Assembly (NCBI RefSeq): GCF_035084215.1
Contig: NC_090351.1
Coordinates: 10,540,001 to 10,604,000 of the forward strand
Direction of reading: 5' to 3'
Source: Heptranchias perlo
Taxonomy: Eukaryota
Length of the DNA stretch: 64,000 bases
Numbering within the stretch: position 1 is the stretch's first letter; every line of letters begins with the position of its first letter. Shown piece by piece: positions 44,522 to 60,743 of the stretch. Below the pieces are notes generated by a model. That model saw only the letters and a program-made list of their open reading frames with translations. It ran no database searches and had not been told where the DNA came from. A program made the position numbers and the translations under genes.

Positions 44522-44607
44522 ATGTCTGCACCACCATGTGAATTTAACAGAAGTGTTGAGATTAACATCACTAACAACTGCAACAACCAATTCTTCACCA
44601 CACCTGC
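44522..44607 (+). CDS. Actinoporin-like protein 1 (ALP1), coding exon 1
   Basis: MSAPPCEFNRSVEINITNNCNNQFFTTPA; donor GC|gtaagt (phase 2); upstream acceptor ctctttag at 44506; joins in frame to 47739. Confidence 0.88.
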
Positions 44608-44932
44608 GTAAGTATTCAAAGGTGTGATCACGTGTGCCAGGCAAATGAGGGGCCCGCGATTTCCCAATCAGTGTTGCCTGAAAGCACTGCTCAATACTGG
44701 GAACGCCCAGTCGGGGAATCGGCCTCACAAATGTCCAAACTGGTTTTAGTAATTTTACATTAAAGCCGTACCCAGCATTGTGGTGGTGTAAAGCTGGAGT
44801 GTGACTGTGATGTGCCTCAGATGCCATGCGACTGTAGAATAGCCTGCCGACACTCACTGTCTAGACTCACACATGATGAAGGGCCACTTGGGCCAGATAC
44901 CAAAGGGTAATCTGCAACCGTGGAGCCATACC

Positions 44933-46389
44933 ATAAAAGGGTAGTAGGCAGAAGGCTGGAAATTATAGACCAGTTAACCTAACATCTGTGGTGGGTAAAA
45001 TTTTGGAGTCTATTATTAAGGAGACAGTAGCAGAACATTTGGATAAACATAATTTAATAGGACAAAGTCAGCATGGCTTTACGAAGGGGAAGTCATGTCT
45101 GGCAAATTTGCTTGAGTTCTTTGAGGACATAACGTACAGGGTGGATAAAGGGGAACCGGTGGACGTAGTGTATTTAGACTTCCAGAAGGCATTCGACAAG
45201 GTGCCACATAAAAGATTATTGCTCAAGATAAAAAATCACTGGATTGGGGGTAATATTCTGGCATAGGTGGAGAATTGGTTATCTAACAGGAAGCAGAGAG
45301 TTGGGATAAATGGTTCATTCTCGGACTGGCAACCAGTAGCCAGTGGTGTTCCGCAGGGGTCGGTGCTGGGTCCCCAACTCTTCACAATCTATATTAACGA
45401 TTTGGAGGAGGGGACCGAGTGTAACATATCAAAGTTTGCAGATGATACAAAGATGGGAGGGAAAGTAGAGAGTGAGGAGGACATAAAAAGCCTGCAGGGG
45501 GATATAGACAGGCTGGGTGAGTGGGCGGAGATTTGGCAGATGCAATAAAATATTGGAAAATGTGAGGTTATGCACTTTGGCAGGAAAAATCAGAGAGCAA
45601 GTTATTATCTTAATGGCGAGAAACTGGAAAGTACTGCAGTACAAAGGGATCTGGGGGTCCTAGTGCAAGAAAATCAAAAAGTTAGTATGCAGGTGCAGCA
45701 GGTGATCAAGAAGGCCAACGGAATGTTGGCTTTTATTGCTAGGGGGATGGAATATAAAAACAGGGAGGTATTGCTGCAGTTATATAAGGTATTGGTGAGA
45801 CTGCACCTGGAATACTGCATACAGTTTTGGTGTCCATACTTAAGAAAAGACATACTTGCTCTCGAGGCAGTACAAAGAAGGTTCACTCGGTTAATCCCGG
45901 GGATGAGGGGGTGGACATATGAGGAGAGGTTGAGTAGATTGGGACTCTACTCATTGGAGTTCAGAAGAATGAGAGGCGATCTTATTGAAACATATAAGAT
46001 TGTGAAGGGGCTTGATTGGGTGGATGCGGTAAGGATGTTCCCAAGGATTGGGTGAAACTAGAACTAGGGGGCATAATCTTAGAATAAGGGGCTGCTCTTT
46101 CAAAACTGAGATGAGGAGAAACTTCTTCACTCAGAGGGTAGTAGGTCTGTGGAATTTGCTGTCCCAGGAAGCTGTGGAAGCTACATCATTAAATAAATTT
46201 AAAACAGAAATAGACAGTTTCCTAGAAGTAAAGGGAATTAGGGGTTATGGGGAGCGGGCAGGAAATTGGACATGAATTTAGATTTGAGGTTGGGATCAGA
46301 TCAGCCATGATCTTATTGAATGGCGGAGCAGGCTCGAGGGGCCGATTGGCCTACTCCTGCTCCTATTTCTTATGTTCTTATGTTCTTAT
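44933..46389 (+). mobile_element. Young CR1 LINE, 5'-truncated, inserted into a SINE in the ALP1 intron
   Basis: RT nearly open ([35 protein letters not shown]) with stops at 45264 and 45546 and a frameshift near 46050; (TTCTTATG)n tail; atacc on both flanks. Confidence 0.95.
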
Positions 46390-46999
46390 ACCCTCGCAAA
46401 CGCCCACACCATCAGGAAGGAGAGGGAAAATGTAGGGAGAAAGATGATAAGGCACTCGGCATGTGTACAATTACAGTTTTGAGCCACACTCAGAAAAATG
46501 CAACAGAATGCACTGAAAATTGTTTAACAAAGGAAGTCACAGGAGAACATTAAACTGGAGCTTTCTTGATGGCTTTGCTAATAAATACACCATGTGCTGT
46601 GGTAGTAAGTTGTCCCAAGTTCTGCTACAAAGAATTACATATAACATAGAATTGCATCGAATGTACAGCACAGAAACAGGCCAGTCGGCGCAACTAGTCT
46701 GTGCTGGTGTTTATGCTCCACTTGAGCCTCTTTCCCACCCCTCTTCATTTAACCCTATCAGCATATCCTTCTATTCCTTTCTCCCTCATGTGTTCATCTA
46801 GCTTCCCCTGAAATGCATCTATCCTGTACGTTATTGTTTAAGATCTAGTATGGTTCCGGGTTTTTTTTAAAACAAGGGTGTACCTTCATCCTGCAGACTG
46901 CTTTGAAAAAGTCTTTGATTCTGTAAACATCTTCATGAGTTGCTCTGTAACGTTCCTGCCTCAGCTGGCCTCAACTCCTTCCACACCCACTAGATTGAC

Positions 47000-47250
47000 A
47001 ACAACAATTTGCATTTATGTAACGCCTTTAACGTAGGAAAACATCCCAAGGAGCCTCACTGGAGCGGAGTCAGGTACAAATTGACACCGAGCCAAAGAAG
47101 GAAATACTAGGAGGGGGTGACTAAAAGCTTGGTCAAAAAGGTGGGTTTTAAGGAGGGTCTTAAAGAGGAGAGAGAGTCGGAGAGGTTTGCGGAAGAAATG
47201 CCAGATCACAGGGCCTAGACGCCTGAAGGCCACCACCAATTGTGGGGCGA
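47000..47250 (-). mobile_element. L2-like 3' end
   Basis: Minus translation LFKTLLKTHLFDQAF; (aac)n tail. Confidence 0.75.
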
Positions 47251-47738
47251 ATGACAGACATCATTGTATCCCTCTAACTTCTGTCAGGCAGCCCATGGAA
47301 TGGGACAAGTGGGACCCACGACTGCAGTCTGTCCAGCTGCTCCATGTTGAGGTGGCAGCACAGCACTCTGTTTAAAATCATAAACAAAAATGTAATCATT
47401 GACAGCCTGTGAATTACAAGTTGAAATGTTATTGCTTAAACATTTAACGTGTATCTTTGCCCTTGTTTTAATGGAGGTGCTAACCAGTTCAAAATAAAGC
47501 AGACAGACTAATTTGATATGAATGCACTGAGGATAATATCGTACAGTGTAATTTCCAGGCTGATTTTTTTCCAATGCAGTTTTGGTTATTATTGATGTTG
47601 TACTCGTGACCATCTATTCCCAAGAATTCAAGCTTTCTTTAGAGAGTAATCCTTCACAGGTTGGAAACTAGAAGACATGATTTCAGAACTTGGGATAAAC
47701 CTTTCCTTAATGCGCTACATGTAATATGTTTTTTATAG

Positions 47739-58883: not shown

Positions 58884-59292
58884 TTAAGCATCTCTGATAT
58901 CTATTTTGAGTATAGCTTTCTGCTCGTTGGACATAGTAGCAGAAATGAACATGCCTCCTTTTCTGATGTTCAGAGATGAGTTCCCTTTGCCCAGCGCTGT
59001 CTTAGTGAAGGAAGCCGATTCTGTTTGCTCAATATACATCTTATTGTACAATGCTCGGTCGGTCGGAATGGGCCTGTCGGGGGCGAAGAGGGCGTATTCG
59101 ATGCTGTACTTGCTGTAGTCGTAAGGGTTGGAGACCAGCAGCGAGACCTGGGCGTTGCTGAACTTGTAACTCAGCACCCCGACGGTGCCACAGGCTGTGT
59201 ATGGAGTCTTAATGAACACGCACACTCCTTTCTGCCCTCTGTCGATGGTGGGTGGTGGTGGGCTTTGTACGCGGCCACTGTAACTGTAGGTC
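58884..59292 (-). CDS. Actinoporin-like protein 2 (ALP2), coding exon 2; total 170 aa
   Basis: Acceptor tcttacag; 409 nt (same as ALP1); TYSYSGRVQSPPPPTI...CVFIKTPYTACGTVGVLSY...VSNPYDYSKYS...DRALYNKMY...ISATMSNEQKAILKIDI; TAA stop; minus-strand AATAAA at 58558-58563 and 58394-58399. Confidence 0.93.
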
Positions 59293-59384
59293 CTGTAAGA
59301 GACACATTGTGGGTGTATTATAGTCTTAAAAGGCCTGATAGGGATTCTTTAGCTAATCCGTTATCACAACAACTATTGGCATTC

Positions 59385-59860
59385 ATATCGCTTTTAATGT
59401 AATAAAACGCCCCAAGGCATAATCAAACACAAATTTACACCCATCCAAAGAAGGAGACAATGGGACAAAGTTCGGCCAAAGAGGTAAGTTTTAAGCAGCG
59501 AGGTGGAGAGGCAGAGAGGTTTAGGGAGGGAATTCCAGAGGTTGAAGGCACGGCCGCCAATAATGGGGCGAAGGAAGTTGGGGATGCACAAGAGGCCAGA
59601 ATTAGAGGAAAGTGGAGATCTTGGAGGGTTGTGGAGTTGGAGGAGGTTACAGAGATAGGGAGGGGCGAGGCCAGGGAGGGGTTTGAACACAAGGATGAGA
59701 ATTTTAAATTTGAAGCGTTTGCGGGCCGGGAGACAATGTAGGTCAGCGAGGGATAATTACAACAGGGACTACGCTTCAGAGGAACTTAATTGGCTGTAAA
59801 GCCCTTCGGGACGTCCTGAGGTCGCGAAAGGCGCTATATAAATGCAAGTTCTTTCTTTTA
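59385..59860. mobile_element. L2-like 3' fragment (minus strand) plus a Deu-SINE tail (plus strand) in the ALP2 intron
   Basis: Minus translation GLAPPYLCNLL...GGRAFNLWNSLP...LLKTYLF; SINE tail at 59760-59860. Confidence 0.78.
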
Positions 59861-60639
59861 CATCCAACCCTAACCTAAATGCACCTATCTCCAGATACGT
59901 CTTTGTACTTTTCTGACATCTTTTTGGGGTAAATAAGAATTCTGTGAGGAATATTTATTTTTTTTGGCAACACTGTCAAGAAATACATTTGATTGTAATC
60001 TGCGAAATCTCAGCTACCTCTATCAGTCCACAAATCACGTTTGCGGTTGCCTTAAAACGGAATGTGCGTTTATTAAAACAACAGCAGGGCTCCACTTTAG
60101 GGATTTATCGCTCCCAACGCAGAGTTTTGCGTGACGGGAGTGCATGTTGGGAATTTGGGCACTGAGGTCAGCAAGCCCTGCACAATTTTCCATCTGGTGC
60201 TAATTGGTAAAATCTGCTCCGAGGTTGTTAAAAAAAGCACAAGGGGAGCCTGGAAATTGGAACCAGAGAAGAACCAGAGCTTTGTCAGAACTCGGCTCTG
60301 GGTCTGCACCTCAAAACATCGTCATGTCTTTCCCTTTAAGATGCTGACTGATCTGCTGTACATTTCCAGCATTTTCTGGCCGTAACCTGACTGAAATATT
60401 TAGCCAGCGAAGCTTTAACTACTTTCTTTCATCGTACTGTAACTAGAAACAAATTGTCTTGGATTAAGTCAAGATTTTGCCAAATGTATTTTTTTTTTGT
60501 TTTCCATGAAAAAGAAAGTCAGCACTGGATCTAATCTTACCAATGTGTAACAAGTATTTACATTAAACACTGCAAATTACTTTGAAGTTTTTCACAACCC
60601 CTCCAAAGAAAGAAATGCACACAGATGCTGGTTACTTAC

Positions 60640-60743
60640 GCAGGTTCAGTTAAAATGTAGTTCATGCTTTTGTTGGAGATTTCAATCCCCACACATCTGG
60701 AAGAGTCAACACTTTCCATTATTTCTTCAATTGATTTCGACAT
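60640..60743 (-). CDS. Actinoporin-like protein 2 (ALP2), coding exon 1
   Basis: MSKSIEEIMESVDSSRCVGIEISNKSMNYILTEPA; donor GC|gtaagt at the same position and phase as ALP1; upstream acceptor tttttttccag at 60754 implies a 5' non-coding exon. Confidence 0.9.

What the first reader, a model, noticed from the sequence alone, without database searches (positions are those of the whole stretch)
44522..60743. Convergent pair of intact actinoporin-like (pore-forming toxin fold) genes in a shark-like genome
Seen: two genes face each other about 10.7 kb apart. They share one architecture: a phase-2 intron after ...P-A (GC|gtaagt), a 409-nt second exon, the start context tacagaATGTC and an upstream splice acceptor. 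Their proteins have diverged strongly, yet both frames and all splice sites are intact. Known: NPYDY[NS]xYS and the Y-x3-Y cluster are signatures of the sea-anemone actinoporin family and of fish/moss actinoporin-like proteins. Inference: an old inverted duplication kept under selection. It may form a chondrichthyan membrane-binding or defence module, possibly part of a larger cluster beyond the window edge.
Basis: partly seen in the sequence, partly recalled or inferred. Interest (0 to 1): 0.8.

Follow-up and report, generated by a model that had tools for sequence, protein, structure and literature searches.

The report
Shark actinoporin-like gene cluster
These are two intact, spliced shark genes for proteins predicted to fold like sea-anemone pore toxins; their pore-making helix is short or missing, so they likely bind membrane lipids rather than punch holes, and they sit in a larger cluster of a known vertebrate family.

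Summary
Both genes are intact and pass the Pfam PF06369 cut-off. Gene B and an orthologue of gene A fold like actinoporins (Z 19-21). Both predicted junctions appear in contigs from two organisms (RNA status is the tool's guess).

The pair is the edge of a roughly 440-kb cluster with 9 intact genes and 4 broken pieces. A and B are not sisters: A groups with D, B with the C group. The family is not shark-specific: relatives occur in ray-finned fishes, lungfish, coelacanth, amphibians, turtle, ostrich, platypus and echidna. Gene B is already auto-annotated.

Equinatoxin II has 30 residues before strand 1; B has 15 and A has 9. A keeps all 8 phosphocholine-site positions; B keeps 7. The likely function is non-lytic lipid binding, like zebrafish Dr1 (inferred, untested).

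New here: the conserved subfamily split and a Pfam-invisible shark subfamily, K. Nine searches found no paper on this cluster, but actinoporin hits in stingray spine transcriptomes are published.

The parts
44039..44417 (+). Gene A: one upstream exon (5' UTR), donor GT at 44418. Contigs of X3 and X5 carry 129 and 134 upstream letters that do not lie in 43900-48900, so another upstream exon is likely
   Evidence: tables 5 and 8
44507..44607 (+). Gene A first coding exon. ATG at 44522 with an in-frame TGA 4 codons upstream, so no N-terminal extension through this acceptor; 9 residues before strand 1; phase-2 donor
44608..47738 (+). Gene A intron (3131 nt, GT..AG), holding decayed repeats (LINE-like stretch near 45000-46380; family name recalled)
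47739..48147 (+). Gene A last coding exon (409 nt): actinoporin beta-sandwich core and helix 2; PF06369 36.9 bits; all 8 phosphocholine-site positions kept
48148..48600 (+). Gene A 3' UTR as far as contigs reach; a polyA-signal hexamer lies near 48604
58422..58883 (-). Gene B 3' UTR as far as contigs reach
58884..59292 (-). Gene B last coding exon (409 nt); PF06369 28.3 bits; K at the W112 position, E at W116, I at Y138 (EqtII numbering)
59293..60639 (-). Gene B intron (1347 nt, GT..AG)
60640..60753 (-). Gene B first coding exon; ATG 60743; encodes a short amphipathic helix (model residues 5-11) and strand 1; phase-2 donor
60849..60920 (-). Gene B upstream exon (no ATG in the 72 covered bases); 95-nt intron 60848-60754

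Best explanation
Genes A and B are intact, spliced members of the vertebrate actinoporin-like (apnl/Dr1-type) family whose proteins likely dock on membrane lipid head-groups at epithelial surfaces without making an actinoporin-type pore. Shown: gene structure, spliced contigs, family membership, orthologues in sharks and rays. Predicted: the beta-sandwich fold. Inferred mechanism: the aromatic loop (NPYDY) and helix 2 bind a phosphocholine-type head-group, best in A, which keeps all 8 site positions. Pore formation needs an N-terminal segment that lengthens into a membrane-spanning helix (residues 6-28 in EqtII). A has no such helix and B has about half of it, so A almost certainly cannot and B probably cannot span a bilayer this way. 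No hydrophobic leader is seen, so the proteins would be cytosolic or released without the classical pathway. The cluster split early into subfamilies with different lipid faces (A/D, B, C group, K), which suggests different ligands. A barrier or innate-defence role in skin and gill is inferred from teleost expression data only.
For: PF06369 over cut-off. Model of B: pLDDT 87.9, TM 0.83 to EqtII, Z 21.4 (rmsd 2.4, 164 aligned) to bryoporin. Model of A's Heterodontus orthologue has no N-terminal helix; its residues 3-164 align to EqtII/FraC 24-179, Z about 19. EqtII R31 aligns with R16 of B and R10 of A. 7 of 11 A-orthologue records start at the same Met or close to it; 4 automatic models plus the Rhincodon model carry longer N-termini, 2 of them counted among neither pattern cleanly. 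Site conservation: S54, V87, S105, P107, Y113, Y137 in 11 of 11 A orthologues and 11 of 11 B orthologues; Y138 in 9 of 11 A but 2 of 11 B. Highest 9-residue hydropathy near the N-terminus is 0.11 (A) and 0.63 (B). Zebrafish Dr1 has an incomplete N-helix, binds membranes and is non-lytic (as cited in PMC8778704 section 9 and PMC6231492). apnl is a skin-epithelium marker in salmon (PMC10627282). Selection on B: 4 of 5 listed coding differences to organism B are synonymous; at worst 17 of 408 coding versus 33 of 402 UTR positions differ, p = 0.019; all 4 listed indels are in the UTR.
Against: No binding or lysis data exist for any shark member. B's short helix is strongly amphipathic (hydrophobic moment 0.64) and a 15-residue amphipathic N-terminus recurs in platypus, echidna, coelacanth and caecilian (0.41-0.59), so it is conserved for some purpose. 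Divergent actinoporin-like proteins can still form pores (mytiporin-1, PMC9645577). Transcripts whose ToxProt hit is the actinoporin Avt-1 are abundant in stingray spine tissue (757, 401 and 67 FPKM; PMC6315956 Table 3). Both listed coding differences of gene A in organism B are non-synonymous (2 of 2 listed). Paralogue dN/dS for A is only 0.40-0.69, with dS near saturation for most pairs. The Dr1 paper itself could not be read. Tissue of the runs is unknown. A's own full protein was not folded; an orthologue stood in.
Confidence: 0.6

Rival explanations
1. B-type proteins are true small pore formers of barrier or innate immunity: the short amphipathic helix plus the N-terminal residues inserts and permeabilises parasite, microbial or damaged-cell membranes, possibly with helix-less A/D/K proteins as lipid-targeting partners.
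For: B's helix has hydrophobic moment 0.64 and is conserved across jawed vertebrates. pI of B is 8.68 and of D 9.18, near the actinoporin range. The fold matches actinoporins over all 170 residues. Expansion with young copies and broken copies resembles defence gene clusters.
Against: 15 residues before strand 1 versus 30 in EqtII. K and E replace W112 and W116, and there is no tryptophan in B. Dr1 is reported non-lytic.
Confidence: 0.2
2. They are venom or skin toxins of cartilaginous fishes.
For: Actinoporin (Avt-1, Q5R231) hits rank in the top 25 toxin-like transcripts of three Potamotrygon spine transcriptomes (PMC6315956). Automatic names call them toxins.
Against: Orthologues occur in many non-venomous sharks and skates and relatives in turtle, ostrich, lungfish and coelacanth (venom status recalled). 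No hydrophobic leader. The stingray hits are similarity labels from spine tissue that includes epithelium (inference); I did not see those sequences.
Confidence: 0.07
3. They are glycan- or glycolipid-binding (lectin-like) or intracellular membrane-adaptor proteins that use the same fold with another ligand.
For: The fold is shared with fungal lectins and aegerolysins (Z 12-13). The C group and K have lost much of the aromatic loop yet stay 80-85% conserved across sharks. Echotoxin prefers gangliosides (PMC8778704).
Against: A and B keep 8 and 7 of the 8 phosphocholine-site positions, which points to a lipid head-group.
Confidence: 0.13

Closest known systems
Zebrafish Dr1 / teleost apnl (vertebrate actinoporin-like proteins, AF superfamily)
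   Same: PF06369 domain, about 170 aa, shortened N-terminus, Leu at the W112 position in A, P-[WYF]-D motif. Teleost proteins are in the same profile search and tree.
   Different: Dr1's own sequence was not compared. The shark proteins form their own clade (98/91) with four or five subfamilies in one cluster, one with no N-helix (A) and one invisible to Pfam (K).
Sea-anemone actinoporins (equinatoxin II, fragaceatoxin C, sticholysin II; PF06369)
   Same: Fold (TM 0.81-0.83, Z 20-21), phosphocholine-site residues, helix-2 tyrosines.
   Different: 20-25% identity; N-terminal region 9-15 instead of 30 residues; no tryptophan cluster; cysteines present (5 in A, 3 in B); no RGD in B; no hydrophobic leader.
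Bryoporin (moss) and HALT (Hydra)
   Same: Best single-sequence PDB hits of B's last exon (E 4e-4 and 7e-4) and top structural matches (Z 21.4 and 19.1).
   Different: Bryoporin is a shown sphingomyelin-dependent pore former with a full amphipathic helix (PMC9526159).
Mytiporins and coluporins (mollusc actinoporin-like expansions)
   Same: Lineage-specific expansion with diverged lipid-binding sites (PMC9645577, PMC6231492; passages seen).
   Different: Mytiporin-1 forms pores and lyses red cells; nothing like that is shown here.

Membership tests
Actinoporin-like proteins (PF06369, AF superfamily) | Pfam Anemone_cytotox match over the curated cut-off | tested here: met
   A last exon 36.9 bits, B last exon 28.3, full B 29.9; cut-off 25
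Actinoporin-like proteins (PF06369, AF superfamily) | Actinoporin beta-sandwich fold with helix 2 | tested here: met
   Predicted models: B TM 0.83 to 1iaz, Z 21; A orthologue Z 19-20
Actinoporin-like proteins (PF06369, AF superfamily) | P-[WYF]-D motif | tested here: met
   NPYDY in A and B; motif named in PMC8778704
Vertebrate (apnl/Dr1-type) actinoporin-like proteins | Closest relatives are jawed-vertebrate ALPs with a shortened N-terminus | tested here: met
   20 of 20 top representatives looked up are jawed vertebrates; 14-15 residues before strand 1 in the six bony vertebrates plus two monotremes checked
Vertebrate (apnl/Dr1-type) actinoporin-like proteins | Membrane binding without lysis | not testable with these tools
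   Needs liposome and haemolysis assays
Actinoporins proper (pore-forming toxins) | About 30-residue N-terminal region able to form a membrane-spanning amphipathic helix | tested here: not met
   9 residues and no helix in A; 15 residues with a 7-residue helix in B
Actinoporins proper (pore-forming toxins) | Phosphocholine site S54, V87, S105, P107, Y113, Y133, Y137, Y138 | tested here: met
   8 of 8 in A; 7 of 8 in B (Y138 is I). Numbering read from the alignment; site list matched to PMC8778704 and recall; counts
Actinoporins proper (pore-forming toxins) | Tryptophan-rich interfacial patch (W112, W116) | tested here: not met
   A has L and M (W112L is tolerated per PMC8778704); B has K and E
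Actinoporins proper (pore-forming toxins) | No cysteine, pI above 8.8, RGD motif | tested here: not met
   5 Cys in A, 3 in B; B pI 8.68; three of four A orthologues pI 4.7-4.9; no RGD in B or in the four A orthologues checked
Actinoporins proper (pore-forming toxins) | Signal peptide and propeptide | tested here: not met
   In-frame stop just upstream of A's ATG; no hydrophobic N-terminal stretch in A or B (simple hydropathy, not SignalP)
Actinoporins proper (pore-forming toxins) | Sphingomyelin-dependent oligomeric pore | not testable with these tools
   Needs experiment; no complex prediction was run

The most novel reading that the evidence does not exclude
The cluster encodes a division of labour kept since before the shark-ray split: helix-less lipid-recognising members (A, D and the Pfam-invisible K) and short-helix members (B, C group) act together as a multi-component membrane-attack or lipid-sensing system of vertebrate skin and gill. 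The family persists to ostrich and monotremes, may have been lost from beside AP4B1/DCLRE1B in therian mammals, and may have been recruited into stingray spines.
Probability: 0.12. Interest if true: 0.78.

Novelty: new member of a known kind. Interest (0 to 1): 0.4.

Why it matters
The role of vertebrate actinoporin-like proteins is described as unclear in the papers read (PMC6231492, PMC5198562). This locus supplies a natural series in one genome: no helix with a full lipid site (A), short helix with a partial site (B), eroded site (C group) and a remote member (K). That makes the question of what they bind, and whether any lyse, directly testable. It also shows that automatic toxin names on shark, ray, bird and monotreme genes, and 'Avt-1' hits in stingray venom lists, should not be read as proof of venom.

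Tried and rejected
Rejected: A and B as a sister inverted pair (tree; identity A-D 53% versus A-B 44%). Rejected: chondrichthyan-only family. Rejected: an N-terminal extension of A through the 44507 acceptor (in-frame TGA). Rejected as noise: the Herpes_MCP hit (E 0.1), and coiled-coil or ice-binding Pfam hits in the 21-bp tandem array at 55.8-56.9 kb. Weak tblastn hits at C30:10.619, 10.668, 10.671 and 10.818 Mb were not supported by either profile.

Genome-wide searches with B's exon (18 of 18 candidates scored) and PF06369 (8 of 8 scored) found matches only in this cluster; both missed known cluster members, so other loci are not excluded. No run is on record as RNA: no RNA holder listed, tissues unknown. 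Cross-species dN/dS could not be computed, as no orthologue DNA was held; only a truncated difference table for one relative was available (40 rows shown, 174 not shown). F versus G gave dN/dS 2.4 on 17 non-synonymous and 2 synonymous differences, too few to claim positive selection. K: no Pfam hit, no PDB sequence hit, not in the ESM Atlas, not folded (both jobs used). Pfam scans for other genes covered 100 of 201 unique frames inside the cluster and 55 of 228 in the flanks; the far flanking gene was not found. Literature: nine searches listed no paper on shark actinoporin-like genes; several used loose term counts and were dominated by unrelated papers. The Dr1 paper is not held. No supplements were opened. 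Earlier scan notes: nothing.
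Full report
1. Observation. All coordinates hold. Gene A (+) has coding exons 44522-44607 and 47739-48147, giving 164 aa. Gene B (-) has coding exons 60743-60640 and 59292-58884, giving 170 aa. Both introns are phase 2 and GT-AG, both last exons are 409 nt, and the stops are 10.7 kb apart. The two shared motifs occur once per strand in the window, exactly at the starts and donors. 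The last exons pass the PF06369 cut-off (36.9 and 28.3 bits versus 25).

2. Splicing. No run is on record as RNA, but assembled contigs skip the predicted introns to the base. B's junction is in 3 of 4 runs laid, from two organisms. A's is in 4 of 4, from two organisms, one with only 29 letters on the short side. X1-X4 are one sample, so this is two samples in all. Precise GT-AG skips are best read as spliced RNA (inference). The contigs add an upstream exon to each gene (44417/44507 and 60849/60753). An in-frame TGA lies four codons before A's ATG; B's upstream exon has no ATG in the 72 bases covered, though its frame is open. Tissues are unknown.

3. The cluster. The window is G000:C30:10540001-10604000. 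I read 10.49-11.154 Mb in tiles. Intact two-coding-exon genes: A (+, 10.585-10.588 Mb), B (-, 10.599-10.601), K1 (-, 10.762-10.767), C (-, 10.802-10.805), D (-, 10.863-10.885), F (+, 10.922-10.925), G (+, 10.966-10.968), J (+, 10.997-10.999) and K2 (+, 11.017-11.020). All share the phase-2 intron. Broken pieces: a frame-shifted exon near 10.897, a partial exon near 10.9695, a copy with stops and a frame change near 10.981, and a short 3' remnant near 10.6895 with weak support. C, F, G and J are young copies (74-96% identical). K1 and K2 lie in inverted segments 97-99% identical. A and B lie between an adaptin-beta gene in the window (Adaptin_N and B2-adapt-app_C; AP4B1 by recall) and a DNA-repair metallo-beta-lactamase gene at 10.6415-10.6556 Mb (DCLRE1B by recall). 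That these two are head-to-head neighbours in human is recalled, not tested.

4. Relatives. B's last exon is 100% identical to a RefSeq protein named 'hydra actinoporin-like toxin 7 [Heptranchias perlo]'; 11 B-type proteins from sharks, skates, rays and two unnamed assemblies are 73-84% identical. D also has a RefSeq record. A has 11 orthologues at 63-74% in sharks, skates and rays, and the 12th hit is platypus at 39%; A's own protein was not listed there. A profile search found 446 representatives at E up to 0.001. All 20 that I looked up are jawed vertebrates: the shark itself, manta, bichir, sturgeon, gar, teleosts, lungfish, coelacanth, caecilian, frogs, newt, turtle, ostrich and echidna. 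None of the 20 was a therian mammal, which is too small a sample to show loss. Members of different subfamilies share a longest-contig length within Heterodontus, Rhinoraja, Stegostoma, Mustelus, Hypanus and Cetorhinus, consistent with a conserved cluster. In a 50-row tree the 31 chondrichthyan rows form one clade (98/91), split into A+D (99/97) and B+C group (96/86); the root is the midpoint, K was not included, and no AU test was run. Since A and B each have ray and shark orthologues, their split predates the shark-ray divergence (inference).

5. Selection. Against organism B, gene B shows 50 differences over 58482-59291: 33 listed in the UTR, 5 listed in the coding exon (4 synonymous) and 12 unlisted. 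Placing all 12 in the coding part gives 17 of 408 versus 33 of 402, p = 0.019; the 4 listed indels are all in the UTR. For A the 2 listed coding differences are both non-synonymous, so A's constraint rests on intact, 63-74% identical orthologues. Paralogue dN/dS is 0.40 for A-B, 0.22-0.32 for B against C, D, F, G, J, and 0.5-2.4 among the young C-group copies on few changes.

6. Structure and mechanism. The B model (pLDDT 87.9, pTM 0.84) matches EqtII at TM 0.83 and bryoporin, FraC and EqtII at Z 21. A model of A's Heterodontus orthologue (pLDDT 86.8) has no N-terminal helix and aligns only from about residue 24 of EqtII/FraC. In actinoporins the N-terminal region of about 30 residues detaches and lengthens to span the membrane (PMC12197748, PMC9526159, PMC8778704; passages). 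EqtII has 30 residues before the Arg that opens strand 1; B has 15, A has 9 and K about 3. A keeps all 8 phosphocholine-site positions, with Leu for W112, as reported for Dr1. B keeps 7 but has Lys and Glu at W112 and W116. C-group orthologues also change S54. No hydrophobic leader is seen. I therefore commit to non-lytic lipid head-group binding, probably at epithelial barriers (0.6). A short-helix pore former (0.2), another ligand class (0.13) and venom (0.07) are the rivals. Binding, lack of lysis, location and role are all inferred.

7. Subfamily K. Two near-identical genes have the same exon plan but no Pfam or PDB sequence hit. They match my family profile (E 3e-4 and 4e-5) and the B and A alignments weakly (probability 82% and 47%). 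Four homologues are 74-84% identical; three are 'uncharacterized' or 'hypothetical' shark proteins and one is unnamed. K is probably a remote member; its fold is untested.

8. What is known. Actinoporin-like proteins in chordates, mainly teleosts, are in print, and Dr1 is reported to bind membranes without lysis (PMC8778704, passages and section 9; PMC6231492 and PMC5198562, passages; the original, PMC1559445, was not held). apnl is a skin-epithelium marker in salmon (PMC10627282, section 17) and is differentially expressed in stickleback immune tissues (PMC4790908, one passage); that apnl is orthologous to these genes was not tested. Stingray spine transcriptomes list Avt-1 / DELTA-thalatoxin hits (PMC6315956, passages and Table 3). 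PMC9645577 and PMC12088643 were seen as passages only. Nine searches listed no paper describing the shark cluster, the subfamilies or the monotreme and bird members; subscription journals and supplements were not seen.

9. Verdict. Real, spliced and conserved genes of a known family, already machine-annotated in part. They are not shark-specific and likely not pore toxins. The added value is the cluster map, the early subfamily split that separates helix and lipid site, subfamily K and the wide tetrapod range. New member of a known kind; interest 0.4.

Noticed in passing
window about 17970-30160 (-): Adaptin-beta gene (Adaptin_N and B2-adapt-app_C), AP4B1 by recall, with a CpG-rich 5' end near 30000-33500.
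   Followed up: partly
G000:C30:10641500-10655600 (+); L014-L016: DCLRE1B-like gene. Its first coding exon has a splice acceptor 27 nt before the ATG and no CpG island nearby, so its first exon may lie at the AP4B1 island about 70 kb away, which would nest genes A and B in its intron. Untested.
   Followed up: partly
L052:2706-6471 (+) and G000:C30:10761608-10766686 (-): Two near-identical intact genes (K2, K1) of a Pfam-invisible, shark-conserved actinoporin-like subfamily, inside inverted segments 97-99% identical that bracket the C-J genes.
   Followed up: partly
G000:C30:10897300-10897730, 10969455-10969682, 10980669-10981550, about 10689500: Broken or partial actinoporin-like copies: frame change, partial exon, stops plus frame change, short remnant.
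   Followed up: partly
P0032, P0051, P0052: Actinoporin-like proteins of platypus, echidna and ostrich pass the PF06369 cut-off; no paper on them was listed.
   Followed up: partly
window 37000-40299 and 55794-56935: Tandem arrays: 35-bp unit x 94 and 21-bp unit x 54. They produce long spurious open frames.
   Followed up: yes
window 41174-43029 (-): Reverse transcriptase frame (533 aa) followed by a weak GIY-YIG match: a Penelope-like retroelement by recall.
   Followed up: no
window 1001-2771 (-): Endonuclease and reverse-transcriptase-like remnants of a LINE.
   Followed up: no
window 46780-47768: A low-depth contig in run X2 runs through the 3' part of gene A's intron into the exon: unspliced RNA or DNA in the run.
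   Followed up: no
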